A DNA stretch of 64,000 nucleotides from Rhizophagus irregularis (lineage: Eukaryota), in NCBI RefSeq assembly GCF_026210795.1, contig NC_089435.1, forward strand, positions 620,001-684,000. The letters are read 5' to 3'. A model generated the notes under the pieces. It was not told the DNA's origin and did not search any database. It saw only the letters and a list, made by a program, of their open reading frames with translations. The position numbers and the translations under genes are program-made. Position 1 is the first letter of the stretch. Each line of letters begins with the position of its first letter. This document shows, piece after piece, positions 27,630 to 51,010 of this stretch.

Positions 27630-27870
27630 CCCTATAAAAAATGTTTGTCTGATAAATATTCGGAATGGGGTCAATTATCCGAACACTCACACGTTATTAT
27701 ACAATATTTGTTACAATTTAATACAAGATGCAGAGATTGAGAATTTTCGACCACATAAAAAACGTACAATATCATGATAATTGTCCAATAAATGTCAAGT
27801 AAATGTTCGGAACGGGGTCAATTTTCCGAACAAAAAACCGAACAGCGTTTGGACAACTTTTTTTATAGGG
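27630..27870. mobile_element. CCCTA-terminated MITE (CACTA/CMC-like), copy 1
   Basis: ccctataaaaaa...ttttttataggg; 3-bp TSD CCA; near-identical to 31237-31475. Confidence 0.9.
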
Positions 27871-28005
27871 CCAATATCAGCAAACAATGCTATTACTTTA
27901 ATATACAATACTTTAATAAAATAAATAAGCAAAATACTGTTATAGAATTTATTTCATTTATTTCATTTGTTTTTTTTTTAACATTTAAACAAAAATATTC
28001 TCAAT

Positions 28006-30574
28006 TTACTTTGCATGAATTTGTTCTAATTTATTTTGAGCATATTGATTTCCTTGTAATGCAGATTTTTTATACCAGTAAATTGCTTGATTTATGTCTT
28101 GAATAATTCCTTTTCCATTTTCATACATAAAAGCAAGATTATATTGAGCTGCAATATTTCCTAAATCTGCTGCCTTTTGATATAATTCAAATGCCCTTTT
28201 TTCATCAATATCAGTTCCAATTCCCCTCCTATAACAATCACCTAGATTACTTATTCCATATGCATTTCCTAAATCTGCTGCCCTTTGATATAATTCAAAT
28301 GCCTTTTTTTCATCAATATCAGTTCCAATTCCCCTTCTATAACAATTACCTAGATTACTTATTCCATATGCATTTCCTAAATCTGCTGCCCTTTGATATG
28401 ATTCAAATGCCTTTTTTCCATCAATATCAGTTCCAATTCCTTCTCTGTAATATTTACCTAGATTATTTATTCCACCTGCATTTCCTAAATCAGCTGCCTT
28501 TTGATATAATTCAAATGCCTTTTTTTCATCAATATCAACTCCAATTCCTTTTATATAACAATTACCTAAACTATTTATTCCATTTGCATTTCCTAAATCT
28601 GCTGCCTTTTGATATAATTCAAATGCCTTTTTTTCATCAATATCAGTTCCAATTCCTTGTTTATAACAATATCCTAAATTAAATATTCCACCTGCATTTT
28701 CTAAATCAGCTGCCTTTTGATATAATTCAAATGCCTTTTTTTCATCAATATTAATTCCTAATCCTTTTTGATAACAAACTCCTAAACGGTTTATTCCTTT
28801 TGAATATTCTCTTTCAGCTAATTTTTTAAATAATTCAAAAGCTTTATCATAATTTTTATAAACACCATACTCATATAGATAACAGCAACCAAGATTATAT
28901 TGTGCTATAATATTTCCTGAATTTGCAGCTACCTGATATAATTCAAATGCCTTTTTTTTATCAATCTTAATTTCAATTCCTAAATAATTAAAATCTCCAA
29001 GTAAAACAATAGAATTTGAATGATTTTGATTATTTAATAACCAAATATAAATTTCCTGTGGAGTTATATTATGATTATTAAGATAATTATAAATGCATAG
29101 TCTTTCTAATTCTTCATCTTCTACGCTTAATTTATCAGAAAGTTCAACCATTTCATCAACTGTCACCATAAAGTTATTATTTGATGATATTGAAGAATCT
29201 ATTTCTTTAATATTCATCTTGTCAAACTCTTGAATAAATTTGGATAATTCTCCATGTGATGAATTATTTATAGGATCCTCAAAAGCATTCAAATCGAGTT
29301 GTTGTTTATTGGATAATTGGTTTGTATAAGAATCATTTGTCCGAAAATCGTCTATAATCATGTTATTATTATTCAGAATAATTACATTTAATTTAAAGAC
29401 CACCTGATTGATAGTTGGACGACTATCTGGTTCATTATTCCAACAATCTAAAAAAAATAAATAGAATTAATTTAATTAACATTAATATAAACATAGAATT
29501 AATTATTAATTATATTTACCAGTATAAATATTCACATAATCTTCGGGTGTATCAGGAATGGGTGTCTCTCTAAGGCCTTGTGATATATTAATTGCTAAAC
29601 AAACGTCATACGGTTTACCTTCAGTATAAAAAGGAGGATTGCCACTAGATATCTCCCATAAAAGTATTCCAATACTATAAATATCACTTTTTTTATTTAA
29701 TTTATAATCTTGATTACTGAAACTTTTTGGGTCAATATAAGGAATTACTCCAAATAATTTCGTTGAAGAAAGGTTGGATGATTCCTCAATTCTTTTTGAT
29801 AGACCAAAATCAGCTAATTTAACTATATTTTGATGAACTAATACATTTTTGGAATGCTATTAAATACAATAAATTTATTAATTACAATTCAAAAACATGA
29901 AATAATAAAATGTAAACAAATGAATTACCAGATCACGGTGAATAATTCCTTCATCATGTAAGCATAATATAGCACAAGCCAACTGAGATGCCATATTAAA
30001 TTTATTATTCCAGGTAAGATTATCAAAATGTTCCTTCAAATATTCTCGAAGAGTACCTCCATCTGCATATTCCATTACCAACCAATATTTTTTTGAATTA
30101 TCAACTTGATTTTCTTTGTAAAAGAAAAAAAATAAAATAAATTTAGATTTTACAATCAAATTATGCATGAAAAGAAAGTATATTATACCTGTTGCAATAC
30201 CACAGAAACGAATAATATTCTCATGAAAATCCACTTCACGCTGAATTTTAAGCTAAATAGAATTTTAAATTAGAAGTTATATAAATTATAGGGTAATAAT
30301 TATTTATTATTACCTCTTTAACTATTTCTTTAATTGTGACGTTGTTAAAATTGAAAAAAGATTTTAATGCCAAATAATTAGGAGAACTTTTCCAGTTCGC
30401 ACGGTAAACTTTCCCAAACCCTCCAAATCCAATTTCTTGAAAATTACTGAAATGATTGAGTTCATAATATTTAAAGTAATCTTTTGCAATGGCTTCTTCA
30501 ATCCAATTAATACACTCATTATTTGAATTTTCAGTAAAATTTACGGGTATATTAAACTCGGTGTTATTAGACAT
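28006..30574 (-). CDS. TKL kinase with C-terminal Sel1-like repeats (RD kinase)
   Basis: Exons 30574-30314, 30252-30189, 30113-29929, 29856-29520, 29447-28006 in frame; GFGGFGKVY, LALK, HRDLHSKN, DFG; ~10 Sel1 repeats of 36 aa. Confidence 0.9.
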
Positions 30575-31236
30575 TATTGGGTTTAATTTTCATTGACGAA
30601 GATAATATTTTTTTTTTTCATGCAATTTATGCAATTTAAGTTTGCTTATTAAAAGGACTGGTATTACCAAGACGTAATTGTGCATGGAAGTACAGTAACT
30701 GTCGATCACTTCAGGTGATACTTTAAAAATAGGTGTATGCCAGACACTATGGCTGTATATATCTATCTATTTGATGATTTTATATATGAAGCACACCCAA
30801 GATACTACTCAAAATGTAAATATTACAATAAAAGACATGTTTTCGTAATGCATCATTACATCATATTTTTTTTTTTTTTTTTTTCATCATTACATCATAT
30901 TTTCTTTGTACATTTTTTTTTACATTTAAAAAGTTTGACGTTTTTGGTAACTCAAAAAATTAATCTAACTTTAATTGGAATGATCAACGAATTGAAAATA
31001 TAACGGGATGATTGAAAATTACGGCCCGTATTTAGAGATAATTCTGGCTCGAATTAACTAAAATCTGATCTGCACAATATAAACTAAAACGTCCAGTCAG
31101 TCCTAAAAATTCAATGTTGTTTAATATTTTAAAATCATAAATAATATCGCATAAAATTATAAAATTGCAATTTTAATTTAAAAATTCTGGTCTGGGTACG
31201 GTTCAGACCATATCTTCATATTTTAATTAATAACTA

Positions 31237-31475
31237 CCCTATAAAAATGTTTGTCTGATAAATATTCGGAATGGGTCGATTTTCCGAGCACTTGCACGTT
31301 ATTATACAATATTTGTTACAATTTAATACAAGATTCAGAGATTGAGAATTTTCGACCACATAAAAAACGTACAATATCATGATAAATGTCCAATAAATGT
31401 CAAGTAAATGTTCGGAACGGGGTCAATTTTCCGAACAAAAAACCGAACAGTGTTTGGGCAACTTTTTTTATAGGG
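31237..31475. mobile_element. CCCTA-terminated MITE, copy 2
   Basis: Same TIRs and interior as 27630-27870; 3-bp TSD CTA. Confidence 0.9.
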
Positions 31476-31544
31476 CTATCATTTTTTTTAATCAAGGAAC
31501 ATATCGTCACTCAACCGGAGAAATTTAATTAATACAACACAACA

Positions 31545-32270
31545 CAGTTAAAGTTATACCGAAGAGTTCATGAAAATATCATACGATTTTGTGGAATCGC
31601 AAAGATAGAATTTATTATTTTAAAATATAAATAAAATTGATTAATTAGGTAAAATTTAAAAATATTCTTTAGTCTTAGAATACGCTGATAGCGGTACGTT
31701 AAATGCTTACTTATTTAATCAACTATTTTAATGAATTGAACTGGAATGATAGATCCCACTTAGAATTGCAATTGGCTAGCCGTAGAGTTTTTGCATGATA
31801 ATGAGTAATACTATATATTTTTTATATATTTATTCATTCTAATATCATTTATTTAAAAAAGAATACAGTATAATAATTGAAGCATACTTATACATCAGAA
31901 AAACATTAAATTAGCAGACTTTGGTTTATCAAAAAAAATTGTTGAAGCATTACCCTACCTATATGAACCCAAAGTTTCAATAACAAAGAAAATTATAAAT
32001 TAAATAAAAAGTCTGATGTATACAACATTGGAGTTTTATTTTGGCAAATTTTGTGGATGTAGACCTTTTCGTGAAATTGATTATGGTCCAAGTTTAATGT
32101 TATTTATATTAAATGGTAAAAGAGAAAAAATTGTTGATTGAAATAAATACAGTAAATTATATACAGGTAACATTTATATAGTCATTATTAGTAATACTTT
32201 TTTTTATGAGCATTATGAATACTAATTTTATTTACTAATTGATTAGCATATTGAACGCCTAAATATGCAA
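31545..32270 (+). pseudogene. Degenerate TKL kinase fragment
   Basis: HENIIRFCGI, YSLVLEYADSGTL, IKLADFGLSKKI, KSDVYNIGVLFWQI, interrupted by frameshifts and deletions. Confidence 0.8.
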
Positions 32271-32334
32271 CAGAGTGAGTTAAATTATTTTTAAATCCTT
32301 TATAAATGCCTCGATTAAAAGCTACCTTTTATAC

Positions 32335-33105
32335 TTAATTTTATTTATACAATATCTGTCTTATGTACTATACCTATTATTAGAAAAAAAAATTAAAAAA
32401 AAATTTCTGAAAGATTTTATTATATTTATACCGATCTATTGCTATTGGCATTATTAAAAAAAATCAGAAAATTTTATTTATACAATACGTACCCGTCTTA
32501 TGTATTATACCAATCTATTGTTATTATTAGAAAAAAAAATTTAGAAAAAATATTTTGTTATATCTATAATGATCTATTGGCGTTATTAGAAAATTTTATT
32601 TATACAATATCTGTCTTACGTACTATACCTATTATTAGAAAAAAAAATTTAAAAAATATTTCTGAAAGATTTTGTTAGATTTATTGATATTAAAAAAAAA
32701 TGGTTAGGAAAATTTTATTTATACAATATGTATTATAGTACCTATTATTAGAAAAAAAATTTAAAAAAAAATTCTGAAAGATTTTATTATATTTATAATG
32801 ATCTATTGCTATTGGCATTATTAAAAATAAATCAAAAGATTTTATTTATACAATACGTACCCGTCTTATGTTCAATACCAATCTATTTTTATTATTAGAA
32901 AAAAAAACTTTAAAAAAAATTCTGAAAGATCTATAACGATCTATTGGTATTATTAAAAAATAAATCAGAAAATTTTATTATAAAATATCTGCCATATGTA
33001 TTTTATTATACTATCTATTGTTATTATTAGAAAAAAAATTTTTAAAAAAAATTTCTGAAAGATCTATAGCGATCTATTGGTTATTAAAAAAATAAATCAG
33101 AAAGG
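32335..33105. repeat. AT-rich degenerate tandem array; further units at ~33840-34000
   Basis: Recurrent ttttatttatacaata..tattattagaaaaaaaa..tttctgaaagat..gatctattgg units. Confidence 0.8.
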
Positions 33106-34696
33106 TATAGTGACTTTTTATTATAAAATGATCGACATATTTTGTGTAACAGTATATTCCTTGCCCCGTACGAAATCTTTTACATAACAATACACTTTGA
33201 AATTTTAAACATATCTTTACAATATCTTGAAACTATCACACATTAATTTTTATTAAAACTATAAACTATTATTGAATTACTTTTATTAATAACAACATTT
33301 AAAGTCTTATATCTAATAAAAAAAATTATTAAATTAAAAAAAAATATAATTGTTATTGATTATAAGACCAAATATTCTTTTTATGCTATTAAAATAGAAC
33401 TTATTTATGTAATTTTTACAAGTTTAATATAAGCTAATTGGATAAAAAAGTAAAAAACTTGAATTTCTATAAAAATTAATAATTAATTTGCCTTTTATGC
33501 AATATGTTTTTTGATTCTACATAAAAATACATATATTTCATTATTAAATGATGTTTAGTTTTCATACAAACTTGCATCTCTGGGTTTAAGTCAACAAAAT
33601 AGGAGAAGTTAACCTAATATAAGTTTTTTATGCAAGTATTGTACTGTCAAAATAAACGTCAAAATAAGCAGAAAAAAGTCTAAAGAACAAAAGTTTTCTA
33701 AAGTCCGTATAAAGGTTGTTTGAGAGAAAACCATCATGTTATATTAGAAGCGTTTGTGCAGATCATTTTTTATTGCGCAAATTTTAATTTAGTAAAAATC
33801 AACACTTCCCATGACATGACCGAGGTTTGATATGTATTTTATTATACGATCTATTGTTATTATTAGAAAAAAAATTTAGAAAAAATTTCTGAAAGATTTT
33901 GTTATATCTATAAAGATCTATTAGCATTATTAGAAAATTTTATTTATACTATATCTGTCTTATGTACTATACCTATTATTAGAAAAAAAAATTTTAAAAA
34001 AAAATTCAAAAAAAATGTTTCAAAATGTTTTTCTATAAGTGTTTTATATAAAAAAAATGTTTTCAACATTTCTTATATTATTATTAATAAAAAACATAGC
34101 AAACCATTTTTTTATGTGTTTTAATATAAAAAATGGTTTGCAATATTTCATAAAATTTTGCTAGAGTTATCCTATAATCAAATTATTAGAAATTAAAATC
34201 CTTATTGGCTGAGATATGTCAATTTGAAGTTCTAATGCCAGTGTTCAATAACTTTCATTTAAAAAATCTTTAAAAGCATGTTAAGCTCCCCCCATGAAAA
34301 TGACCTCTTGTTAATTATTAGCAATTAACCTAGTGATAATTATTGGTAATTATCAAATTTGTTAATCATCGTTATATTTCTTACGATAAAATGTGATAAA
34401 TACCGATAGGGTGATGAACATCGATATTTATCTCCTGAAAAATTTTCCCGATGGTTAAAATCAAATAATCTATTGGTTAAATAAATTCTAGGAAAACGGG
34501 AACCGTCGTAAGTCCGGAGCGAAAAACTAAAATTTGTGATTTCATTGGGCGACGATCACGTGGCTGACAGAGAAATTCACGTGATCGTTTTTTTCATAGT
34601 GCGTAGACATATGGACAATAAAATATGACAAATAAAAAAAATTTTTTTTTTTAGCTAAATAACATAATAATTTAATGAATAATATAAAAAAAAATT

Positions 34697-37028
34697 TCAG
34701 AACTTATATTCATTACGAAATCTAATAGCAGCTTCGTAACCATTATAAACACCTAATTCTATATAATTCTTGGCTTTTTCTATATTTTTTTTACATCCAA
34801 TACCATTATAATACATATTTCCAACGTTGTACATTGCTACTACAACACCATCTTCAGCAGCTTTTTCAAAATATTTAAGAGCTTCTGATTCATTCTTATC
34901 AACACCTTTACCATTAAACAAACAAGCTCCATATCTTACTTTTGCATCAGGGTGTTCATTTGCGTCATCATCAGCAACTTCTTTAAATAATTCAGCAATA
35001 ATTTTATCTTTATTTGGAGGGCTCTCAGCAAATCCTCTTGAAATGTAAATTGCTTTATAATATTTTGCTGTGATTTGATTACGGTTTGCTGTACCTCCTG
35101 TATTACCAAGGTTTGCATAGGCTTCAAAACATTTATATGCAGTTTTTACATCTCCACTAGGCCTGCCATTTTTAAACATCTTATGTTGTTTCGCTGCATC
35201 AGCAAGTGTCATGTATTTAAATGATTCAAAATCTAAATTAATAGGAAGTGCATATGCATCTTGATCAATGCTGAATGCTCGTTTTTGAATAAACTTCGGA
35301 GTGGAAGGTTTTCTGTCTAGGGTTAAATTACAAAAACTTGATGGTTCTTGTGAATATTTCTTGAAACAATTATTAAGAACTTCAAACATGTTCGTGATTT
35401 TTGGCCTAAAATCTGGGTCATGATAAACGGCTAAAAAAAAAGAAACCAATTAAGTACAACAAATAAAATTGTAATTTAAAATATTTTCTTTTACATACCT
35501 TCAATTTCTAATCGTTTGAATTCTTCTGGCATTTGACTATTTTCAGAAAATGGTTCTCTATACGTTTTATTACGTACCTTATCAATTATATCCACAATAT
35601 CATTACTATCCTGATATGGAACTCTTTCTTCAGCAATTTCCCAAAGTAAGATTCCAAAACTATAAATCTCACATCTTTGATCATATTTATAATTTGGCGG
35701 CCTATCCAACAATTCAGGTGCACAATAACGAACTCGATCAAAGTCTGGGTTACCGCGTTCGCCGTGTTGGTAACGAATTAATTTGAAATTTGCAAGTTTT
35801 GCTGTCTCATTAAGTGTAATTAATATATTTTTAGCTCTAATATCTTGATGAAAAATCTAAAAAAAAAAAAAAATTAAAAAAAAATTTTCGTTAATTAAAT
35901 AAAAGCTGGTTATATAATTACCTCTACAGTTCTTAAAAAATTTAATCCACGAGCAATATCAAGAGATATACGTAATTTTGATTTAAGGTCGAAATCATTT
36001 TTATTTTGATAAAATTCACGTAAATTTCCACGTTCAGCCCATTCAGTCACAAAATAATGACATTTATTTTCATCAGAAATTATTCCATAAAATTTTATGA
36101 TGTTTTGCCAATCATGAAGTTCTTTAAGAATTGTAACTTTATTTTGTACAATCATATAGTTTTCTGCCTCAGAGATATTTTTAAAAGCAAATACTTCACC
36201 TTTATTTGTTGTTTTATACCATTTATTTACATGTCTATCATCACTTTCATAATCAGAAAATTTTAATGGATGTATCTGAAAGATATTATCAATTTTTGTT
36301 TGATTTTGAGAAGTTTCATTCATAAATTTTTTCATTGTATTATTCATTACATCAACTTTTACAACTGTTGAAAAAAACTTTTCACTTAAGACTGTGAAGC
36401 AGTCGTTATCATTAATACCAGCCACCATTCCTAATATATACTATAATTATTAAAATAATTTAAAATTAATTTTATGTTCAATTAAAAGTAAAATAAAACT
36501 CAATTTTTTTTATAATCTTACTTTAAATAAATCATCTTGATCGGATTTTAATTGTTCAAGTTCATCAGCAATTTCAACGTTAATAGAAAAAGACAATAAG
36601 TTAATACAACTGTCAGATTCCATACATAATTCTTTAAAAATTTTCTCAACACTTTTCTCTTTAAGGTATTTTATCAAAGTTTTCATTAGAGAGATTTCTG
36701 ATATAAATTTTTTAATTTGCGTTATAATAGTAGATAATTCTTGTAAACGTATATAATTTATTCTATTAAAGAAATCTTGTCTGTCTTTTTTTTTATCTCT
36801 AAGATCTCGTACGGCTAATTCTGCAACACGAACTCGATTTTTTAATATTTTACAAGTTCGTTTATTGTGTTCAGCAGCTTCTACTAATTCGATGATTTCG
36901 TTAAAAAAATTTCCAATTTCATTAATTAAAGGAAGAAATTTTGCAAATGGAACAACCATTAAAGCACTATCTTCCAAATTTTCAACGAAATCATCTTCTT
37001 TATTATTTTTTGATCCATCATCTCCCAT
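34697..37028 (-). CDS. MLKL-like protein: N-terminal helical bundle + pseudokinase + Sel1 repeats (~705 aa)
   Basis: Exons 37028-36522, 36440-35922, 35856-35499, 35430-34697 in frame (2118 nt); PFAKFLPLI..AEHNKRTCKILKNRV helical N-terminus; no Gly loop, FAFK, HQDIRAKN, KLANFKL, YCAPE, CEIYSFG; C-terminal Sel1 repeats. Confidence 0.85.
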
Positions 37029-38629
37029 TTCTAATAATTTATTTAATTAATAATTTAGTCGAAAAAAAGTTTTTTTTTTTTACGAAACTACAATCATCGT
37101 TTTTATTTATTCATGTATGTGCTGTACTACCATTGTGATCAGAAATCCCACGCACAATATATTTATAATTATATTATCAAAAAAAGACATCTATAGCTTG
37201 GTGTTACTAAATTATAAATTTATATGGGGTGATCAAATAGGAAATAAAGATTAATCGGAAGAGGGAGTAGCTATATCGGTCACAGGACCGAATGATTGGA
37301 TGAAAATGGGCCATGTAGTGACCATTTCATCAATCAATGAAGGTTTTTTTGATCATGTATTAATTAATATTAGCTATTTTTAATCCATTATATAAGCCTT
37401 ATTTTAACTTTTTCCTACAAAATATTCATTTACACCATATCCACTTTATTATATTATATTAATCATGTGTTATTACTATGCCTAATAAACTATTGGGCTG
37501 AACATAACGGTTACACGAAATCAAGAATACATTTCTTTTTGTATAGCTTGATAATAGCTCTACAGTGCAACATGAATATATGATATTTCGTGCTATTGTT
37601 TTAAAATATAAATTAAACGCAAACTATTATCATGGAGATAAGGAATTGTTATAAGTATTTTCTATCATTTAGTAAATTTTATATTAAAAAAACTATTTAC
37701 ATTAACGTGATAATTTTATGTTAAATCCATTGTTTATTCTGTTAACTCAAAATACTTCAGTTAAGTAGTATTATTTTATTTATTTCCTTATCTCAATATC
37801 TCACGTCCTTTTTTTCGATTACCAATATTATTAATTTTTTTCGTATTTCCCTTAGCATCATTCATTCTTTTTTTAAAAGAAACAATTAGATAGTAATTTA
37901 TTCTTTTCGTTCCCTTTTATTATTAAAGAATTTTTAAAAATTATTTAATTGCAGTTTATGGGTTTTTAATTACATTAGAATAAACCTTCAATGTGGACGA
38001 TCTAATTAATAGACCTTGATAAGTTTAGTAAATTTCATTTTCTTAATGATAATGGCAACGCTAACTACCTGCTAAAAAAAGTTGATACATATCTATTAAA
38101 AAATTTTTTTTTTTTTTTTTGAACTTAATCTATTCTTAACTATATTTTTTTAGTATTAATTCGTATTTTGTTTAATTTCTGTCGGAAAATCAGAAACTTG
38201 TGCGACATAAACAAAAAACAAACAAATCTTCGTAATATGTTATCATCCATTTGTATCAAGACAAACATTACATCATTTATATATCACTTATTTCGTCATG
38301 TATTCTGTATTTCTCCATGTATTTCGTCATGTATCAAATGGATTTATTCGGATTATTTAAATAATTATCATTTTAATTAAAATACCGAATTCAAAAAAAA
38401 GTTAGCATGGCGATTTAAAAGAAACTTACCATTTACAATAATGATTTTAGCGAAATCACAAATATTTTTTTTTTATTGTTGTAGCCTTAGATTTCTTTGT
38501 CTAACCAAATTATTAACACCAAAAAATTTGAAACATAATAAATTTTTTAAAAAAGAAAATCAATCTTTAATATATATTAAGAAATTCTTTGCTAACGAAA
38601 AATTATCAAACAATATAAACAATATTAAA

Positions 38630-38880
38630 TTGACAACATAGATCAGAGGTTTAAACAAAAAATGAAATAATATTTGAATGGATACCTTTTATGATATCAA
38701 AGTAATAGGTAGAGGTGGTATATTCAGCAAGATGACGGTATATCCCATTATATCAGTTGGGATAGAAAAGAATATACAAGAGATTTAAATAAGACAATGG
38801 CTTTAAAAAGTTTAAATAATTAAGAAGTTTAAATAATTTCCAAAATATTTCCAAATTCCAATAAATTTTTAAGTAAGGTA
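38630..38880 (+). pseudogene. Highly degenerate kinase N-lobe fragment
   Basis: FEWIPF, VIGRGG, WDRKEYTRDLNKTMALKSL pieces with stops. Confidence 0.55.
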
Positions 38881-39289
38881 TGAAAATTTTTTATAATTAA
38901 TTTGAATCGCTCAGTAATAATAATAACATTCCAAAGATTCAGATCCACAAAATCTTTAATTTCAGTATGCCTCTATTCTTGCATCAGAAAAGTTCCTTGA
39001 GATCAACGAGTCCAATGAGATGTGTAATTTTAAAACGATAATTGTTCTGTCCTCAACAATATTTGTACCAAGTGTTACTGGTTCCAGTCTAGATAACAAT
39101 TAAATGTCTATCTAAAAGATCCTTCTGTAAAGTATAAACATAAAGATATATTATAATTGAGAAGGTTTTTAGTTTTAAAGAAATTTGTATATTGTTACTC
39201 ATCCCTATTTATTAGTATTTTTTCAATATCTGTTGAATTACTGATATATTTTAAGTTTTTGGACTAAGCATATTTGTTTATTAATTAAG

Positions 39290-39740
39290 TACTTTGTGTC
39301 ACAAAATTTCTGTGTTCAAATGGCGATTAGATAAAAACCACACCCCATTCACTTTAGCGAGGCTGCTTGAATTATATAAGTTATTCATCTTCGCAGGACT
39401 CCTGCTTTACTGGGTGTTTTTCGCACCCGTTACCAATTTCATGCATAGAGTTCCTTCTCCACACCACATATATTTTCCTTTTTTTCTCCTTTTAGGGTTT
39501 TTCGGCGTCTTTCTTCTCTTTTGGATTCTTTTTGTTGTTCATTCTCTTTAGGGTTTTTGGGTTTGTTGGCAGATCAAAGGCCAGCATTCTGATCTCTTAG
39601 GTAGCATTAGATAGGCGGGCGGCTCCTATAGGGGTTTTTCATTTTACTAAATAGGCATATTAGTTTCTATATGTAACGCTTAGCTAGACTGTAAATGAAA
39701 CAGATCTGTCTTCATTCATGTTAAAAATAAAAATAAAATA
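39290..39740 (+). mobile_element. Possible 5'-truncated non-LTR retrotransposon 3' end
   Basis: Locally higher GC, T-rich 3'UTR-like tract, ending in an A-rich tail taaaaataaaaataaaataa. Confidence 0.35.
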
Positions 39741-41893
39741 AGAAATTGATAGATTATTATGTGTTCTATCAATTTAATAATAACTTTTTTTTTCATACTT
39801 CTCTTCTTAAAAACACGCTTTTTATTTTCAAGATCCAAAGAAATATGCAATTTTAAAAGTATGTAATTTTACAAGTTTTTGCATAAAAGGTAAAAAAAAT
39901 TCAGTTCCATTATTTCTTAATATTTTAAACATTCAGAGCATAATTTCATCACTTTAGTAAAGATAGTAACTACGGCAACTACGAACCATGATATTTTAAA
40001 AAATAATTGATAACGAATAGTTTGAAAATGAAATGATATTATAAAGTCATATGACCATATCATAATTATCATATGTTCAAAATTGAGGGAGTGGCCTTAT
40101 TATTATTATTATTATTAAATTATTAACATCACCTACTATCAGTTAAACATATCTGAACTTTACAAATAAGGAAAATAAGGTATCTCCCTTATACAATGAA
40201 GGTACCACGAATATTATATGTTTAATTTTATTTTCTTTCACGATTTGTACCGTATTTCTTTATAACAATCATCGGATCAAATTTTTTTTTTAAATTTACA
40301 ATTTGCATAAGTAAAAGAAATATATTTTTATATTTTACGATAAATGAGGTTTGTTAAAAAAAAAAATAATTATTTTTAGAAATCCAACACAATTAACTAT
40401 TATTTCTCACTGATACATATACACTGCACCGGTCAGAAAAATTTATAAATTCTTACCATCCTTTTATTTAAAATATCAAATTTGAATCCTTTTACCGTTA
40501 TTCATAACAGAAGTATTTACTCTTTTCTAAATAATATTTTGTGACTATTTTATATTTGTATATTGATTATTGATTATATATAATTTATAATAGTTCAAAG
40601 ACAAAAAAGTTAATAAACTTGCAGAAAAGTGCGGATTAGGTATGTAGAATAAGCAATTAAATTACTTTTACGTGAATTAATGTTGGCTTTATTTCTACGT
40701 CCAGAACCTCAAAATCTTCCGACTTTCTTACAAGATCCAACTATTGCTAAAATTGTTCTCCGCGAACTAAAAAAAAAATGAAATGCTGGGCTTAGTTTTT
40801 GATTGGAATGACTCTGGATTTAATAACGTCTCTACCGTTCCGAACTGTCATGGCCTAACCGGAGCCAGTGCCGTTAATCACGACAACATATTGTTCACAT
40901 TTCTGAAAGGTACGGCGAATGGTCCAGAAATATGACAGCGAACTTACCATGGTATGAAATACGTATTTACGTTTTGGATTCTTTAATGTTATCAGCTTAG
41001 TTCACCATCATTATATTATATTTGCTAAAGGGCCAAAAACAAAACCAGTGTCCCAAATATATGTAATAGCCTGTTAAGAATCAACAAAATTACTGCTAAT
41101 ACTGGAAATGTAGATATTGAAGATTATCTTACCGTTCTTGAATAATGCTTCCCGATTCATCTTCTGGAAACTATATCAAAAATTTTTTGATATAAAAATT
41201 TAAATATAATAAATATAATATACTATATCTATTTTAACAAGTAAAAACAACGAATGAAACACTATATATTAATTGCGCCTCTCATGGTTTATTTATTACA
41301 TGTTTTTCTGAGTAATAATAGATTGATGTATCGCAACTATCATTTTTTCGTTTTTGTTCTCCGTCCTCTTAGGAACGCAGTTCCTAGTTCCTCCAGTCCT
41401 GACTTCGTACACTCGATGAGTTGCTTCACTAACACCGAATAGATTGTATCTAAGTCTAGAAGTGATTTGAATTTTTTGTATTATCATGCATCACTAAATC
41501 ACGATTGTCGATGGCGATATCAGAACAACAATCTCTAGTCCCCAAATACTCAAAGTGCAACATTATACGTTTACTGACTATCTGCCTAAAAGCCATAGGT
41601 TGAGATAATCAGTTCGTGGGATAAATAGCGGATAATATATCTCGAAAGGAATATCAGAATTTTCGTCTAAGACTTAACCATGGCGTATATGTAACATAAA
41701 AAAAATCCTTTTTTTCTTTAAAATTTTAATTCATTTGTTATACATTGCGTAATTCAGAAACAATGTACTATGTACTATGTATTACATCATTTGATACAAA
41801 TTTCGATTCAACCCGAGATTTTTCTTTGGGGAAGAATTTAATAAAGAAAAAAAGGCAAAAAAAAAAAAAAAAAGTATTAAAAATAAATTTAAT

Positions 41894-42353
41894 AATTTAT
41901 TCGTTGCCCTTGGACAGGACCCAGAAATATATATATAGGGGTCAGGTGATGAAAAAATTTTTTATATGAGCGGTACGCATTTTTTCAGGGCCGGAATTAT
42001 GATAATGTCAGCCGGTTACTATAATAGGAATAAAATTCTGACTGGCATTATCAAAAATTATCTAAAAAAGGAAAGATTTTCATGACTTTTTTTAGTTCAA
42101 AATACGCAAACTCAAACCTGACCCTTATATATATATTTCTGGGTCCTCCTGCGACATCATCGCCTCCATTTTGTCTCTGTGTCACACCCCTCCCTTTTTT
42201 CATTTTTTCATATGTATTCCAGGGACTTTGAATTTTTTTTTTGTTGCAAAAAATCTATTTTTCACGCCCCGTTAAATATCACATGTTTTAATTTTAGCAG
42301 GCATTACATAATTTTGCCCAGAGGCGATGGTGTCACGGGGCGATAAATAAATT
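41894..42353. mobile_element. Older MITE whose left TIR is split by the 41916-42147 insertion
   Basis: Reconstructed left end aatttattcgttgccctgcgacatcatcgcctc matches the reverse complement of gaggcgatggtgtcacggggcgataaataaatt. Confidence 0.65.
41916..42147. mobile_element. MITE with AGGACCCAGAAATA termini, copy 1
   Basis: TIR aggacccagaaatatatatata..gggtcagg; imperfect TSD ccttggac/cctgcgac; inverted copy at 60904-61118. Confidence 0.85.
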
Positions 42354-42371
42354 TACTCTATTTATAAATAG

Positions 42372-42625
42372 GTTGCTTTAGATTAGGTTCAAAAAAAATC
42401 TGGCATTACCTCTTCTATAATTGGTGTTAGAGCAGTCACTATGCTTGAAGAATATTTTAAACCACTTGAATTTAAGTAAAATTTGACAATTTAAAATTTT
42501 TTTTTTTAAAAAAAATATGTTCACTAACGTGAGTTTATAACAAAAAAAAAAATATTATTTTCAGATTGACACCTGAACAAATGAAACGACTTGACGAAGC
42601 ATCTAAACCAACTTCCTTACTCGTC
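42372..42625 (+). pseudogene. Aldo-keto reductase C-terminal relic
   Basis: Spliced translation VALD*VQKKSGITSSIIGVRAVTMLEEYFKPLEFK|LTPEQMKRLDEASKP (intron 42476-42564), like the AKR C-terminal motif but with W replaced by a stop. Confidence 0.7.
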
Positions 42626-43318
42626 GAATGTTTGCATTTTGGATAAACATCTAGGAAAAACATTGAAGTTCCAAAAAAAATTTTGAACCTATCACAAGTA
42701 CATACAATTTGGAAGATAACAATAATTAATGAAAAAAGCTCTAGCTATTTTTATTTCCTTTTTAAATTTATTTTTAATTTTCCTTTTTTTTCAATTTATT
42801 TATATATAAATCGTTAAGATAAAAAAAAAATGAATATAAAAATAAATAAATTCATATTTTAAATAATACAAAACAAAAAAATTATATGATGCATCGACCA
42901 TGTCGATCAAATTTACAGTTTTGTAATATATAACGTAAAAGGGAAATATTTTTTTTGGTTAATTAAAATAGAAACTTTTTTGTGTAAACATCCAGATCAA
43001 CGTATCATAATGCATCTTTGCCCTTTGATAAGTATTTCCAAATAAAACCGAATTTTCCGTAATACTAGAATGAATTCACCGACAGAAAATTCTACATTCT
43101 ATTCAATGGTCCATACCTACATTTTTCAATTTTCATTAAATTTAGGCCGGAATTACGATTTTAGCTAGAATTAAGAAAATTTCGGCCAAAATTATATATT
43201 CGAAAAATTAATTTTTAGCCAATTTTGATCTACATATATATATAAGCTCTATATATTATGCTATAATTTTAATATGGCCAATCATAATAGAAAAAACGAT
43301 TGATAAATAACAGAATTA

Positions 43319-46300
43319 TTAATCTTCAATTATACAATCAAGACCTTGAGTCTCTTCTTGAACTAAAATTTCAGTAAGTTTGCGACTTGTATAATATGCT
43401 TGTGAATGAGATTGTATAACAGAGGTATTTGCTTGTTCTTGAAATAAAGCTTTATCTGCTTCTACAAATTCTAACATATTATTTGTTAATTGATTATCAA
43501 GATTAGGTACTTTATAGACATAATTTCCATCCCTGTTGAATCTATAATATTCACTAATACACATATTCCAATCAGATAAAATATTTTCAAGCATTTTTAT
43601 GGTTGGTCTTTTAGAAGGATCTGAATCCCAACAACTTTTCATTAAATCTATATAACATTTTGGAGTATTTTTTATAATTTCAGGGCGTCTTCCTTCTTTA
43701 CAAATACTTAAGGTAAGGTGATTATCATGTGCTTCATGATTAAATGGAGGGATACCTGATGTAAATTCCCACATTATCATTGAAAAACTATAAATATCAC
43801 TTGCTGGTGTATAAGGGTTTTTCCTTAATATTTCAGGCGCCATATAAGGTAAAACTCCATAAATTTTATTAACTTTATTGACAGAATCTTGTAAATCACT
43901 TATAGGTCTACATAATCCTAAATCAATAATAAATAACTCATTATAATCATCTGACATTAAAATATTACCATCATGAAAATCACCATGAGTTAAATTTGAT
44001 TCATGAATTACTTTAAGTCCTGATACAATATTCTTTAATAATTGTAACCTGACTTGCCATTTAAATTTAGCTATATCAGATAAACACTTTTTCAAACTTC
44101 CTTTTTTTGCATAACTCATTACAATTATATAATTTAAATTATTTGGATCTTGGGTAATTCCAAAAAATTGAATAAATTTTGAAAATGATTTTTTTTGACA
44201 ATTATAATGATATTTCCACTATATAAATAATAAAAATATTGTTAACCATTTGCATAAAAAAATAAAATTGCTACTAAATATGAATAATATACCTCATCCA
44301 GAAATTTACTATCTAAGCTTGATGAACTATTAAGTGTTTTAAGAATAACCTCATAACCTGTTTGAAAATTGCATCTATTCCATTGTTGTTTGTTAAAATT
44401 CCAACTATAAATAGGTCCATCTAACCAGATAGCTTTATGAATTTCACTAAATCCTCCTTTATCATAATAATTAATCTCTGACGAGTTATTATAAGGTATC
44501 CACTCTAAAATTTCATAACTACTTTTAGCATTTAGTTGTGCTTCTTGAATAAATTTATCAATAAATTCATTTTTACTAGTCCACTTTGAAAAATCTTGTT
44601 GAAATCGTTTAGTATTACATTGTTGGCACCATTGATAATCAGTATATGGTTGCATGCATTCATTACATGATTCAACTTCATTTTTAGGATTTACTTTATC
44701 ATTTTCTACTACTTTTTGATGCCAATAAAAGGCTTTTTCTAAATTCTTCTTTGTCCCTTCTCCATTATTATAACATGTGGCTAAATTATTCATTGCACCA
44801 GTATGACCATTTTCTGCTGCTTTTTGATACCAATGAAAGGCTTTTTCTAAATTCTTTTCTGTTCCTTTTCCATTTTCACAATGTATGGCCAAATTAAACA
44901 TTGCGTCAGTATACCCATTTTCTGCTGCTTTTTGATACCAATAAAAGGCTTTTTCTAAATTCTTTTCTATTCCTTCTCCATAATTATATCTATTGGCTAA
45001 ATTAAACATTGCTACTTCATAACCATTTTCTGCTGCTTTTTGATACCAATAAAAGGCTTTTTCTAAATTCTTTTCTATTCCTTCTCCATAATTATATCTA
45101 TTGGCTAAATTAAACATTGCTACTTCATAACCATTTTCTGCTGCTTTTTGATACCAATAAAAGGCTTTTTCTAAATTCTTTTCTGTTCCTTCTCCATAAT
45201 TATATCTATTGGCTAAATTAAACATTGCTACTTCATAACCATTTTCTGCTGCTTTTTGATACCAATAAAAGGCTTTTTCTAAATTCTTTTCTGTTCCTTC
45301 TCCATAATTATATCTATTGGCTAAATTAAACATTGCTATTTCATAACCATTTTCTGCTGCTTTTTGATACCAATAAAAGGCTTTTTCTAAATTCTTTTCT
45401 ATTCCTTCTCCATAATTATATCTATTGGCTAAATTAAACATTGCTACTTCATAACCATTTTCTGCTGCTTTTTGATACCAATAAAAGGATTTTTCTAAAT
45501 TCTTTTCTGTTCCTTCTCCATTATTATATCTACTGGCTAAATTAAACATAGCACTAGTATTACCATTTTCTGCTGCTTTTTGATACCAATAAAAGGCTTT
45601 TTCTAAATTCTTTTCTGTTCCTTCTCCATAATTATATCTATTGGCTAAATTAAACATTGCTATTTCATAACCATTTTCTGCTGCTTTTTGATACCAATAA
45701 AAGGCTTTTTCTAAATTCTTTTCTATTCCTTCTCCATAATTATATCTACTGGCTAAATTAAACATTGCTACTTCATAACCATTTTCTGCTGCTTTTTGAT
45801 ACCAATAAAAGGATTTTTCTAAATTCTTTTCTGTTCCTTCTCCATTATTATATCTACTGGCTAAATTAAACATAGCACTAGTATTACCATTTTCTGCTGC
45901 TTTTTGATACCAATAAAAGGCTTTTTCTAAATTCTTTTCTGTTCCTTTTCCATTTTCACAATGTATGGCCAAATTAAACATTGCGTCAGTATACCCATTT
46001 TCTGCTGCTTTTTGATACCAATAAAAGGCTTTTTCTAAATTCTTTTCTGTTCCTTCTCCATTATTATATCTATTGGCTAAATTAAACATTGCTATTTCAT
46101 AACCATTTTCTGCTGCTTTTTGATACCAATGAAAAGCTTTTTCTAAATTCATTTCTGCTCCTATTCCATTATAATACCAATTGGCTAACTTATTCATTGC
46201 TTTTTCATCTCCATTTTCTGCTGCTTTTTGGTACCAATAAAAAGCTTTTTCTAAATTCTTTTCTATTCCTTTTCCAATTGTACAACATATGGCTAAATTA

Positions 46301-47016
46301 AACATTGCACCAGTATGATCATTTTCTGCTGCTTTTTGATACCAATAAAAGGCTTTTTCTAAATTCTTTTCAGTTCCTTTTCCATTTTCACAATGTATGG
46401 CAAAATTAAACATTGCGTCAGTATCACCATTTTCTGCTGCTTTTTGATACCAATAAAAGGCTTTTTCTAAATTCTTTTCTGTTCCTTCTCCATTTTCATA
46501 ACATATGGCTAAATTAAACATTGCTTCTTTAATACCATTTTCTGCTGCTTTTTGACACCAGTAAAAGGTTTTTTCTAAATTCTTTACTGTTCCTTCTCCA
46601 TAATAATTACATACGGCTAAATTAAACATTGCTACTTCATAACCATTTTCTGCTGCTTTTTGATACCAATAAAAGGCTTTTTCTAAATTCTTTTCTGTTC
46701 CTTCTCCATTATAATAACATACGGCTAAATTAAACATTGCTACTTCATAACCATTTTCTGCTGCTTTTTGATACCAATGAAAGGCTTTTTCTAAATTCTT
46801 TTCTGTTCCTTTTCCATTATAATACCTATTGGCTAAATTAAACATTGCTTCTTTAATACCATTTTCTGCTAATTTTTCTAAAGAGTTAATACATTCTTTA
46901 CACCATAATTCTTCAGTAAACGGTTTATTGCAATATGAACAATTTTTGGTGTTTACTGTATCAGTTATATCAGTATGTTTATCATAGATATTTAAATTAC
47001 TAGATTTAGTTTCCAT
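43319..47016 (-). CDS. Sel1-repeat (20x) non-RD TKL kinase, ~1207 aa
   Basis: Exons 47016-44293 and 44218-43319 in frame; CxxC-WCxxC knuckle, 20 x 36-aa Sel1, second knuckle, EWIPY, KGGFSEI, VILK, HGDFHDGN, DLG, YMAPE. Confidence 0.9.
44710..46869 (-). repeat. Coding tandem array of 20 x 108-bp near-identical Sel1 units
   Basis: Counted from the translation; consensus AENGxxxAMFNLAxxxxxGEGTEKNLEKAFYWYQKA. Confidence 0.95.
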
Positions 47017-47236: not shown

Positions 47237-47870
47237 AGTATATGATTATCCAGTACGGTACGAATTTGCAAACCTGTACGGTACGGTTGATCAATTTTTG
47301 TGATAATCATTTCGTACCGTACCGTACTGGTTCTATAATAATCTCTTTATATATAGAACCAGTACGGTACGGTACGAAATGATCAACCATAAAATTTAAC
47401 CAACTGTACCGTACCGTACTGGCTCTATAATAATCTCTCTATATATAGAACCAGTACAGTACAGTACGGTTATTGTTTTAAATGAACATTTTGAACATTG
47501 GTGTCCAAATTACAAAAATGAACATTTTGAACATTGGTGTCCAAATTACAAAAATGAACATTTTGGACATTGGTGTCCAAATTACAAAAATGAACATTTT
47601 GGACATTGGTGTTCAAATTACAAAAATGAACATTTTGGACATTGGTGTCCAAATTACAAACATGAACATTTTGGACATTGGTGTCCAAATTATTAAAATG
47701 GACACTGGTGTCCAATAATTATATGCTAAATGTATCGTACTGATTTTCTCTTTATTATAGTGTCAGTATGGTACGGTACGGTCATGTTGATCAAATTTTG
47801 TAATTTTGTATGGGTGATCAACCGTACCGTACAGGTTTGCAAATTCGTACCGTACCGATTATCCTACTAC
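47237..47870. mobile_element. MITE/foldback element with internal palindromes and a 36-bp minisatellite
   Basis: gtacggtacgaatttgcaaacctgtacggtacggttgatca is mirrored at 47815-47856; ~6.5 x aatgaacattttggacattggtgtccaaattacaaa at 47481-47716. Confidence 0.85.
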
Positions 47871-48577
47871 CTCCGATTTTTCTATAAAAAAAAAATTTTT
47901 TTTGCATTTAATTTTTAAAAAATTTTAAGATTATAAATCAGAATAAAATTAAATATAAATTGACAAATAAAACTCAATATATAGATGGGTGTACAAAATT
48001 ATTTCACTTTGGATTTTCAAAAATATGATAGTAATATTCAATAGTAATTTCCCTATTTGACGATACATATAATAAATTGATTATTATAGATTAAAAAATC
48101 CCGTTATGCTCATAAATACACATTATTATAAAATTTTTTAGGGATATAAATAATCTAATCAATTTTTTAAGCAGTATACTTTATTAAAATAGATTATGAA
48201 TATTATAATTATCAAGAAAATTAGATTCAAACTCATTCAAATTATAATTCAAGAATTTTCAGTCAACAAAATTAGTCTATATTGTTATAATATGTCATTG
48301 TAATATATACTTAAAAACCATATACTTAAAAACCCATTAAATTTCATAACATATATTGTTAAATTTATTTGTATTGTCTAAAGATCAAGGTTTCACGAAT
48401 AATTATTCGTCTAAAATCATTAAACTGTAAAATAAAATAATGATAATCAATACTAATAAAGGAGGTTCCGAACTTAACTTTGACATAAAAAGTAAATTTA
48501 TGCTCCAAATTCGGAAAATGATAGTCTTAAACCAGGTTATTGGTTCTAGACCTGAAACTAATATAATTTATGTTCCA

Positions 48578-50483
48578 GGTCATGATAAAAAACTCTTCCT
48601 TCAAAAATTAAAAAACATAACAATTCCGCAGTAAAATTTTAATTTTATTTTACTCAGTTTTTTATTAAAATGGAAGATACAAGAAAAATACAAATAGCCG
48701 AAAATAAGTTTCCTATGCTTATTATGGGTGATGAAAATAGGTTTTTAAAAACTACATATTTCCAATATATACAATATTGTGAAAGTCTTAGTGCTTCATT
48801 TTTTAAGGGACGTTCAACAGAAGTTCAAAATAATATTTTAAAAGCAAATTTTGGATTAACAAATGAAGACATACTCAGTTGGGAGAATAGAGCCTCTCGT
48901 TACCAAATGACTCCTCAAAGTTTCTCATTTTTTTTACATGTTGCTATGTACTCTGCTTCTCATGGTTTTAACGCAGTATATGATGGGATACAACAGAGAT
49001 ATGCTGAAAGAAAGCAAATAATGAATGTTGTGAGAAAACATGAGGATAAGTCTAAAAAAAGAAAGGCTAAAAAGAATAAAAAGAAAAAACACCAAACTGT
49101 TGATTCTGATTCTGATCCATTAACAAATGATGAATCAGATGATTATATGCGAAATACTGTTGATGATGATGATCAAATAGGTGATGATCAAGATGTTAAT
49201 ATAAATCGGTCGATTGCGGATGCCTCTGGATCTCAATCACATGTTGATCAACCTTTTGATATGGACGTCACACCAGTAGAACCAGTATCTAATCTGGATG
49301 TTACAATGCCTCAGCCGCAGCTATTACAACAACCAGATAATAATTTATCTAATTTGACAAAATCTTCGAATAAAAAAAGAAGTCAAATAAAAATATAATT
49401 CAGCAAGTTATTACAGGTCATAAACCAGGTGATGATGGTACATCACAAGTCAGAGACATTTTGGTTTATGATATCCCAGTATCCTGGACGCCAGAAGAAA
49501 TTCTGCAAAAGTTAACATTTTGGGGGAATACTATCTCATTACAAATGAAACAACAAAAGAAATACCAAACAGTTCGTTTGAAGATAGAATTAAATTCTTT
49601 GCGTCTTACCCAGTTCGAAGGTAATGATGATCCTGTTTGGACTACGGATTTAGGGGGGATACCGGTTCGATGGTTTCCAGCAAGGTGGACACTCAAAGAA
49701 AGAAAACAACGTGAGAAGTTCCAAGCTACAATTCGAAAAATTCCAGAATCGATGACGATAGCAGCCTTATGGAAAGACCATTGCCCACATTCATTCCTTT
49801 CTGCGATTAAGGGTTTGAAAAGCTTTAAAATTATACAGACTGCAAGGGGGGATCGTAAACTTATTGGTTATTTTGAAAAGTGGGTTGATATGCGTACAGC
49901 ATTAGATAATCAATTTGATTGGGAGCAATTGCACCTGTCTTGGAATCGACATGATTCTCCATCGCAACGAACAAGGTCATTTGGTAATAATACCAACAAG
50001 GACCGGCAACGAACTTCAGGAAGTCGACAGACTGATAAAAGTAAACAGAATTCTAAGAATTCTAAAAAGAAACCACAAGAGGCAAAATCTGAGAAGCATA
50101 ATAAGCAGAAGAAAGATAAGTCCCGTAAAACATCACGATCAAAGGTCTTAGCGGAAATTTTAGATGTTTTACGTAAATTAATTTAGGATATACTAAATTT
50201 TTTTAGGTTTTAGAATAATTTTCTTTTTGTTTTATAGTGTGTTTTTTTTTTAGAAAAATATTTTTGATCTAGTCACCAAAGGATGTACGAATACCGGTAG
50301 GGTGCTTATGCATGTGAAAGTATTTGGGCAGGCATGACGGTAGATAGTTCTTTTGAACATATATTCTTAAGTCACCATTTTTTTTTATTAGTTTTTATTC
50401 GATCTTGTATTTAAACTAGATTAGTTCAATTTTGTATATTTTTCTTTTATAATAAATATTGTCCTTTGTTTAAAAAAAAAAAA
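48578..50483 (+). mobile_element. Poly(A)-tailed retroposed element carrying only an ORF1-like coding region
   Basis: 16-bp TSD tataatttatgttcca (48562-48577 and 50484-50499); AATAAA at 50451; A-tail at ~50472-50483. Confidence 0.8.
48670..50186 (+). pseudogene. LINE ORF1-like protein (basic/acidic tracts, RRM-like region) split by a 1-nt frameshift
   Basis: The -1 frame continues KKSNKNIIQQVITGHKPG..RDILVYDIPVSWTPEEIL from an A-run at ~49372-49378; no RT or endonuclease motifs seen. Confidence 0.55.
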
Positions 50484-51010
50484 TATAATTTATGTTCCAA
50501 ACTCGGAAAATGATAGTCTTAAACCAGGTTATTGGTTTTAAACCTGAAACTAATAGTTTGGAGTACAAACCGAATTAGTCGAACAATTTATCATCCTTAC
50601 TAAAATCATAATTTTTTTATGAATATCTTTGAAAATTCTTTAAAGAATTTTCATTATATAAATATCCATAATATTATTTAATATTTTTGATGACATTGTT
50701 CGTTCGGTTCGGTTCAGTTAATTAAGGTTAGATCAAAGTTGTATAACATTTTTGTATTATCATGTAAAGATTAACAGTTTTGAGTTTATTTATTATGAAA
50801 CAAGGCGTTTATTTTAGGTTTCTTTTTCAGTACTTATAAAGTTAAAATATATATATGTGTAAAATTCTTACAACAAAAATTATTATTTTTTTTTTTTTGC
50901 AATTCGAATATTTCATTACAAAATAATACTTCATTCTATTTGACTTTATTAAAAAAATCTTTATACAAATAATAAATTTACCACAGATATTAAGAAAGTC
51001 ATACTTCAAT

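What the first reader, a model, noticed from the sequence alone, without database searches (positions are those of the whole stretch)
28006..47016. Candidate innate-immune / necroptosis-like module: three co-oriented Sel1-kinase architectures
Seen: three consecutive intact minus-strand genes, namely Sel1x20-non-RD kinase, helical bundle-pseudokinase-Sel1, and RD kinase-Sel1x~10. Known: animal necroptosis couples TKL-group RIPKs to MLKL; fungal NLRs use high-identity repeat arrays as sensors; Glomeromycotina have expanded kinase and Sel1 families. Inference: an NLR-independent sensor-kinase-executioner system. Caveat: these families are so abundant that adjacency may be chance.
Basis: inference. 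Interest (0 to 1): 0.8.

Follow-up and report, generated by a model that had tools for sequence, protein, structure and literature searches.

The report
Mycorrhizal-fungus MLKL relative among Sel1 kinases
The middle gene of this trio in an arbuscular mycorrhizal fungus matches the animal cell-death protein MLKL along its whole killer-domain-plus-pseudokinase length and likely acts as a membrane-rupturing death switch, but its two kinase neighbours likely sit beside it through gene-family turnover rather than as a fixed three-gene system.

Summary
The three minus-strand genes are real and intact: A (20 Sel1 repeats + non-RD kinase, 1207 aa), B (four-helix bundle, brace, pseudokinase, Sel1; 705 aa) and C (RD kinase + 9 Sel1, 762 aa; spliced transcript seen). 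They come from a Rhizophagus-type genome. B is the real finding. Its bundle folds like MLKL (Z 12.7), and a family profile aligns in one stretch to full-length human and mouse MLKL (E 4e-55). The family spans three Glomeromycota orders.

The trio is not shown to be a module. A broken opposite-strand kinase lies between B and C, and the window holds seven kinase loci. None of 8 R. clarus MLKL-like genes shares a scaffold with A- or C-type hits. No RHIM core motif was found, and B's activation loop has no Ser/Thr for a RIPK3-type switch.

A family-level link remains. C-type RD kinases stand upstream of the bundle in 21 of 154 bundle-bearing public models, and two of four other reference MLKL loci lie near Sel1 kinases. 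Glomeromycotina 'MLKL with Sel1' was noted once in print by transporter-database annotation, without testing the bundle. Verdict: new variant of a known kind; killing activity untested.

The parts
43319..47016 (-). Gene A: 20 Sel1 repeats, then a Cys-rich linker and a non-RD TKL kinase (HGD, DLG); 1207 aa; exons 47016-44293 and 44218-43319
   Evidence: closest PDB kinase is RIPK1 by only 6-8 bits; family of at least 50 hits
44690..46850 (-). High-identity Sel1 array of A: 20 x 108 nt, mean 88% identity, two identical unit pairs, variation concentrated at repeat positions 7-11 and 34-36
   Evidence: pN/pS 0.96 between units
34697..37028 (-). Gene B: MLKL-like protein with a ~31-aa acidic extension, four-helix bundle, brace/coiled coil, pseudokinase and Sel1/TPR tail; 705 aa; exons 37028-36522, 36440-35922, 35856-35499, 35430-34697
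   Evidence: identical to public protein P0225
36522..37028 (-). Exon 1 of B: four-helix bundle plus first brace helix
   Evidence: AF2 pLDDT 79.9; Z 12.7, rmsd 3.0, 135 aligned to the human MLKL N-terminal domain
35699..35784 (-). Activation segment of B (residues 365-390, coordinates approximate): NFK replaces DFG; no Ser/Thr; most divergent part among close paralogs
31542..32165 (+). Frameshifted, stop-riddled relic of a C-type RD kinase between B and C
31237..31475 (.). MITE-like element with ~12-bp terminal inverted repeats and a 3-bp target duplication (CTA)
28006..30574 (-). Gene C: RD TKL kinase (HRDLHSKN, DFG) + 9 Sel1 units; 762 aa; exons 30574-30314, 30252-30189, 30113-29929, 29856-29520, 29447-28006; transcribed and spliced
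27630..27870 (.). Second copy of the MITE (95% identical) with its own target duplication (CCA), so an independent insertion
   Evidence: dispersed family (20 contigs at one site in run X5)

Best explanation
Gene B encodes a Glomeromycota relative of MLKL that likely works as an autoinhibited death switch: the pseudokinase would hold the four-helix bundle shut until a cue releases it to oligomerise and permeabilise the membrane, likely sacrificing a stretch of hypha. Shown: the architecture, the fold, the collinear homology to animal MLKL and the loss of the DFG aspartate. Inferred: killing and autoinhibition. For B itself the cue is probably not RIPK3-style phosphorylation of the activation loop, which has no Ser/Thr; binding of a ligand or partner kinase to the pseudokinase or to its own Sel1 tail is more likely. 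At family level the likely upstream partners are HRDLHSKN-type RD kinases (C's superfamily), which recur upstream of the bundle in fused models. A and C are members of two large, mobile Sel1-kinase families; they likely lie here because such families are born and die in the same genome compartment, not because this trio is a fixed module.
For: Fold: human MLKL N-terminal domain Z 12.7 (rmsd 3.0, 135 aligned), mouse MLKL 12.5, AtMLKL3 11.1. A 40-sequence profile aligns as one stretch to residues 4-470 of human MLKL (E 4e-55) and to mouse MLKL, the top two PDB hits. B alone: best kinase hit MLKL at 88 bits against 79 for BRAF. Atlas top three clusters are chordate MLKL at 0.98. DFG Asp is Asn in 114 of 124 domains; subdomain-IX Glu, also seen in MLKL in the alignment, is in 113 of 124 against 1 of 79 C-type kinases. 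The pseudokinases form one clade, support 1.0. All 10 of 10 divergent members looked up are Glomeromycota, from three orders. An RD kinase lies upstream of the bundle in 7 of 52 (one search set) and 14 of 102 (one search set) models, from several branches of the kinase tree. Against a fixed trio: 0 of 8 R. clarus MLKL-like tags share a scaffold with 20 C-type or 14 A-type tags; seven kinase loci in 64 kb, several broken; C's closest relatives carry widely separated locus tags.
Against: No functional data. The unrelated bundle HHM ties MLKL in the fold search (Z 12.8), and helical bundles reach such Z values without kinship. With the broad profile, MLKL kinase-only chains (151-154 bits) do not outrank ZAK (159) or CTR1 (155), so orthology is not shown. 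B's bundle is preceded by ~31 residues, and most family members have such extensions, which could block or change membrane attack. The catalytic Asp is kept in 116 of 124 domains, so atypical activity is not excluded. Fused models may be gene-prediction merges, and the set is biased toward multi-kinase proteins. Some co-location favours linkage: 2 of 4 other reference MLKL loci lie 5 and 17 tags from a listed Sel1 kinase, and a bundle-only fragment lies four accessions from a close C paralog.
Confidence: 0.5

Rival explanations
1. A, B and C form a dedicated module: A's Sel1 array senses non-self, A and/or C phosphorylate B, and B kills.
For: Co-orientation and intact frames. A's variable high-identity array. 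A's kinase hits RIPK1 first in the PDB (80 bits against 75 for RIPK4 and 72 for IRAK4). One Rhizophagus-type model, P0273, joins kinase-Sel1 to bundle-pseudokinase. A bundle fragment lies near a close C paralog. A review states that fungal death pathways often sit in 2-3 gene clusters (PMC12881547, passage).
Against: No shared scaffolds in R. clarus. A kinase relic lies between B and C. No RHIM core motif. No Ser/Thr in B's loop. Nearest Atlas clusters for A's kinase are lineage-specific expansions, not RIPKs. C's PDB hits are generic TK/TKL kinases (using the 93%-identical stand-in P0257).
Confidence: 0.13
2. B is a non-lytic pseudokinase scaffold or decoy. Its fast-changing activation loop and Sel1 tail bind effectors or partner kinases, and the bundle serves oligomerisation or signalling, or B dampens killing by paralogs.
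For: The activation loop is only 37% identical to paralogs that are 90-95% identical in flanking domains. It has lost all Ser/Thr, unlike 113 of 121 family domains. An acidic N-terminal extension precedes the bundle. Bundles also occur on RD kinases and in tandem.
Against: The bundle is 94% identical among those paralogs and keeps the MLKL register. Even distant invertebrate MLKL bundles kill human cells (PMC11476962, abstract passage).
Confidence: 0.25
3. All three are near-neutral passengers of transposon-driven expansion of high-copy kinase and Sel1 families, with little current function.
For: Kinase and Sel1 families are enriched in methylated, MULE-adjacent regions (PMC8647823, passages). 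Relics and MITEs lie in the locus. pN/pS near 1 among A's repeats.
Against: B is intact with 97-99% identical full-length counterparts in other records. The architecture is kept across three orders. C is transcribed and correctly spliced.
Confidence: 0.12

Closest known systems
Animal MLKL (necroptosis executioner)
   Same: Four-helix bundle, brace and TKL pseudokinase in the same order, alignable in one stretch. Lost DFG Asp, KLAxF motif, Glu in subdomain IX.
   Different: B adds an N-terminal extension and a Sel1/TPR tail, keeps the catalytic Asp, lacks activation-loop Ser/Thr, and belongs to a multi-copy family. No RHIM core motif in the neighbouring kinases.
Plant MLKL (AtMLKL3, PDB 6ka4)
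   Same: Bundle fold matches (Z 11.1); bundle-pseudokinase layout.
   Different: Not among the top 60 sequence hits of the family profile or the 48 hits of B, so more distant than animal MLKL by sequence.
Fungal HeLo/HELL and basidiomycete MLKL_NTD (BaMLKL) proteins
   Same: MLKL-related bundle, often with an extra N-terminal helix (PMC9815663, passages). Some HELL-kinase fusions are known (PMC12881547, figure-legend passage). A Basidiomycota MLKL_N-kinase cluster ranks fourth in the Atlas.
   Different: Those are mostly NLR- or amyloid-controlled. Here there is no NACHT/NB-ARC by Pfam and no RHIM core motif, and B carries a pseudokinase plus Sel1.
'MLKL family (TCDB 1.A.105) in Glomeromycotina with Sel1' (PMC8778642)
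   Same: Same lineage and domain pairing (main-text passages).
   Different: It is a transporter-database assignment with 121-275 hits per R. irregularis genome (supplement row). The passages seen do not test the bundle, pseudokinase status, activation loop or linkage.
RIPK1/RIPK3 kinases
   Same: TKL-group kinases; A's best PDB match is RIPK1 by a small margin.
   Different: No RHIM core motif or death domain found; Sel1 arrays instead; both belong to large lineage-specific families.

Membership tests
MLKL (animal necroptosis executioner) | N-terminal four-helix bundle plus brace | tested here: met
   (2msv TM 0.60, E 0.4)
MLKL (animal necroptosis executioner) | TKL pseudokinase lacking catalytic motifs | tested here: met
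   DFG Asp is Asn and there is no Gly loop; HRD Asp and beta3 Lys are kept, unlike human MLKL in the alignment
MLKL (animal necroptosis executioner) | Activation-loop Ser/Thr for RIPK3 phosphorylation | tested here: not met
   B's loop has none; 113 of 121 family domains have at least one
MLKL (animal necroptosis executioner) | Bundle begins at the N-terminus | tested here: not met
   B residue 32 aligns to MLKL residue 1; extensions are typical of the family
MLKL (animal necroptosis executioner) | Common descent with animal MLKL (orthology) | tested here: inconclusive
   Collinear alignment and shared motifs, but kinase-only rank is tied with ZAK/CTR1/BRAF under the broad profile; no animal sequences were held for a tree
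MLKL (animal necroptosis executioner) | Oligomerises and permeabilises membranes | not testable with these tools
   needs expression assays
RIPK1/RIPK3 necrosome kinases (A, C) | TKL kinase domain with catalytic residues | tested here: met
RIPK1/RIPK3 necrosome kinases (A, C) | RHIM or death domain | tested here: not met
   no [IVL]Q[IVL]G core; no death-domain hit in Pfam on the exon ORFs
Fungal NLR with high-identity repeat sensor (A) | NACHT or NB-ARC domain | tested here: not met
Fungal NLR with high-identity repeat sensor (A) | High-identity repeat array with a few variable positions | tested here: met
   20 units, 88% mean identity, variation at positions 7-11 and 34-36
Fungal NLR with high-identity repeat sensor (A) | Diversifying selection on the variable positions | tested here: inconclusive
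   pN/pS 0.96 overall and 0.44/0.40 at the three most variable codons; units are not independent
Fungal 2-3 gene cell-death clusters | Adjacency conserved across species | tested here: inconclusive
   0 of 8 in R. clarus; 2 of 4 other reference loci within 20 tags; lists are partial and no genome was held
Fungal 2-3 gene cell-death clusters | Matching amyloid signalling motifs in sensor and effector | not tested
   only the RHIM core was scanned

The most novel reading that the evidence does not exclude
Arbuscular mycorrhizal fungi carry a kinase-triggered, amyloid-free necroptosis system that shares ancestry with animal MLKL. Dozens of bundle-pseudokinase-Sel1 executioners with fast-evolving activation loops are paired with RD kinases whose Sel1 arrays act as diversified non-self sensors, and this locus is one working sensor-kinase-executioner set. 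MLKL would then predate the animal-fungal split or have moved between kingdoms.
Probability: 0.2. Interest if true: 0.88.

Novelty: new variant of a known kind. Interest (0 to 1): 0.56.

Why it matters
AM fungi are largely undivided multinucleate hyphae that host bacteria and meet non-self strains (own knowledge), yet no death executioner has been characterised for them in the papers read here. Their ~2,500 kinases (2,533 of 30,209 genes; PMC10234402, passages) lack an explanation. A full-length MLKL-like family gives a concrete executioner candidate and a testable purpose for part of the kinase/Sel1 expansion. It also bears on the origin of MLKL, which a 2024 paper calls unclear (PMC11476962, passage). 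The bundle can be tested at once by heterologous expression.

Tried and rejected
No genome is held for the window, so the permutation test could not be run. Complex prediction of B's pseudokinase with a C-type kinase was not available: no verdict. The full-length B model never finished.

Metagenome loci of B relatives were 1-2 kb, too short for synteny (7 loci). Four laid runs matched the spacers almost without differences, so they do not test other lineages.

The direct repeats around C as a composite mobile unit or deletion substrate: rejected, since each copy has its own target duplication. The 27681-31380 joint fits an internally deleted copy of the repeat elsewhere, and the 31476-27900 joint is an edge effect of the stretch laid.

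Expression of B: the run search listed no holder on record as RNA. No B or A splice joint was listed in the three guessed-RNA runs; this is no evidence either way. Perfect-match pieces cover A's 3' end.

No Rfam hit in 26-49 kb. The bundle alone finds no MLKL chain in the PDB by single-sequence search, and Foldseek gave no E<=0.001. Earlier scan findings: none. No exact public copy of A or C was seen, but short cluster representatives can hide them.

Kwon et al. 2019 on pseudokinases was not held. I recall that it describes R. irregularis pseudokinase expansions; it may already cover this family.

Full report
Observation. The window is about 26% GC, and its proteins match Rhizophagus irregularis records. 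Three minus-strand genes splice cleanly with GT-AG introns and no stops: A (1207 aa), B (705 aa) and C (762 aa). Pfam finds 20 Sel1 stretches plus a kinase in A; MLKL_N (sub-threshold, E 1.1e-5), a kinase and 2 Sel1 in B; and a kinase and 8 Sel1 in C. C has 9 units by register. A 1270-nt contig from run X18 covers C's exons from the ATG with no mismatch. Three of C's four intron joints are listed in X18, X19 and X20 (two studies) and not in DNA run X1. The genes are not strictly consecutive: a frameshifted plus-strand C-type kinase relic and a MITE lie between B and C.

Gene B. AlphaFold2 on a 24-sequence alignment gives a helical bundle at mean pLDDT 79.9. Among 48,161 chains the best matches are HHM (Z 12.8), the human MLKL N-terminal domain (Z 12.7, rmsd 3.0, 135 aligned, B32-169 on MLKL 1-142), mouse MLKL (12.5) and AtMLKL3 (11.1). 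Sequence evidence is independent of the model. A 40-sequence profile aligns in one stretch across bundle, brace and pseudokinase of human (E 4e-55) and mouse MLKL. B alone ranks MLKL first among kinases (88 bits against 79 for BRAF), as does the narrow profile (115 against 102). The Atlas returns chordate MLKL clusters first. A C-type control ranks generic TK/TKL kinases first. Against over-reading: with the broad profile, MLKL kinase-only chains score 151-154, below ZAK (159) and CTR1 (155), so orthology is open.

The pseudokinase. Of 124 domains collected (near-duplicates included), 114 have Asn for the DFG Asp, 116 keep the catalytic Asp, 107 keep the beta3 Lys, and 113 have Glu in subdomain IX. 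That Glu is shared with MLKL and found in 1 of 79 C-type kinases. In a FastTree tree of 75 sampled domains (19 of 124 pseudokinases, 16 fused kinases, 19 of 79 C-type, 7 of 45 A-type, 14 of 111 others) the pseudokinases form one clade with support 1.0. B's activation loop has no Ser/Thr. Only 8 of 121 full-length loops lack them, and 7 of those are B, its near-identical copies and its closest paralog. The loop is 37% identical to paralogs that are 90-95% identical in the flanking domains. RIPK3-type loop phosphorylation therefore cannot apply to B as it does to animal MLKL.

The family. The bundle query returned 52 proteins, all named from Glomerales; 19 of 52 have B's exact architecture. The profile search of 50%-identity representatives listed 150 hits, 142 new, of which 102 carry the bundle. 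All 10 looked up are Glomeromycota: Rhizophagus, Funneliformis, Diversispora, Gigaspora, Acaulospora and Ambispora. Paralogs often lie in tandem (consecutive accessions). An RD-type kinase or kinase fragment lies upstream of the bundle in 7 of 52 and 14 of 102 models, drawn from several branches of the HRDLHSKN superfamily that also contains C. P0273 reads kinase-Sel1-bundle-pseudokinase. These may be true fusions or merged neighbours, and the second set is biased toward multi-kinase proteins; five of the seven in the first set are one closely related group.

Genes A and C. A's array is 20 x 108 nt, mean 88% identical, with variation at a few positions and pN/pS 0.96. This fits a recombining sensor array but shows no positive selection. 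A's kinase hits RIPK1 first by 6-8 bits, but its nearest clusters are Mucoromycota expansions. Searches with linker regions returned 50 A-type and 174 C-type hits. Neither gene has a RHIM core motif.

Linkage. No genome was held, so I used locus tags printed by the tools. In R. clarus, 8 MLKL-like genes on 7 scaffolds share none with 20 C-type or 14 A-type tags. In the chromosome-numbered reference set, four other MLKL loci lie 5, 17, 993 and 3795 tags from the nearest listed A- or C-type gene. Two of four within 20 tags is unlikely under a uniform null (P 0.0045), but the threshold was chosen afterwards and the null ignores compartments. A bundle-only fragment lies four accessions from a close C paralog, in a region where 18 of 24 listed C-type tags fall. 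The window holds seven kinase loci by HMM, against 2,533 kinases among 30,209 genes genome-wide (PMC10234402, passages). High-copy kinase and Sel1 genes are known to share methylated, MULE-rich regions (PMC8647823, passages). A toy model gives anywhere from 0.001 to 0.86 for such a trio, depending on assumed family frequency and local enrichment, so it decides nothing.

Mechanism. Most likely B is an autoinhibited MLKL-type switch whose bundle attacks membranes once released (inferred from homology; untested). The release cue for B is more likely binding at the pseudokinase or Sel1 tail than loop phosphorylation. C-type RD kinases are the best family-level candidates for partners; A and C are not shown to be B's own partners.

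Literature. PMC8778642 (passages and one supplement row) notes MLKL-family hits with Sel1 in Glomeromycotina. PMC12881547 (passages and section 18) has no occurrence of 'Glomero' or 'Mucoro' and calls for wider study of fungal bundle proteins. PMC9815663 (passages), PMC10197012 (passages), PMC11476962 (passages and section 5), PMC6123716 (passages) and PMC7928374 (passages; NLRs not found in Mucoromycotina) showed no analysis of this family in what I saw. Nine searches found no dedicated study. Subscription papers are not searched, Kwon et al. 2019 was not held (recalled only), and supplements other than that of PMC8778642 were not read.

Verdict. A real MLKL-like family with a new Sel1 tail and a variable activation loop; the three-gene module is unproven and probably incidental. 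Interest 0.56.

Noticed in passing
window 27630-27870 and 31237-31475: Two copies of a ~240-bp MITE with CCCTATAAAAA terminal repeats and 3-bp target duplications; CCC ends and 3-bp duplications suggest the CMC/EnSpm group (label recalled).
   Followed up: partly
window 19524-20574 (-) and 9534-10116 (+): Two more A-type kinase copies: one 83% identical in DNA to A's kinase with a degraded 5' part, one a relic.
   Followed up: partly
window 47253-47855: Just upstream of A: 41-bp perfect inverted repeats 521 nt apart enclosing GTACCGTAC-rich palindromes and a 36-bp tandem array; looks like a non-autonomous element.
   Followed up: no
window 32340-34060: Very AT-rich degenerate tandem/dispersed repeat between B and C.
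   Followed up: no
window 38731-38964: A GT-AG joint (88 nt skipped) in run X19 within the A-B spacer hints at a weakly expressed spliced RNA with no long ORF.
   Followed up: no
window 48487-50555: Two overlapping plus-strand ORFs (251 and 270 aa, no Pfam hit) between 78-bp direct repeats; may be a mobile-element remnant.
   Followed up: no
window 4215-5742, 12428-14689, 23504-23824, 53413-54894, 61416-63233, 63694-63915: Other genes: FAD-linked oxidase (ALO-like), Cys-rich kinase, bZIP, two F-box-like proteins and a Sel1 fragment.
   Followed up: no
proteins P0013, P0037, P0041, P0043, P0363: Some MLKL-like models carry other N-terminal domains: a Tse2-like ADP-ribosyltransferase match and sub-threshold MACPF-like matches, suggesting swapped add-on domains.
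   Followed up: no
proteins P0035, P0048, P0365: Tandem bundles fused to RD kinases rather than a pseudokinase, a second MLKL-like layout in these fungi.
   Followed up: partly
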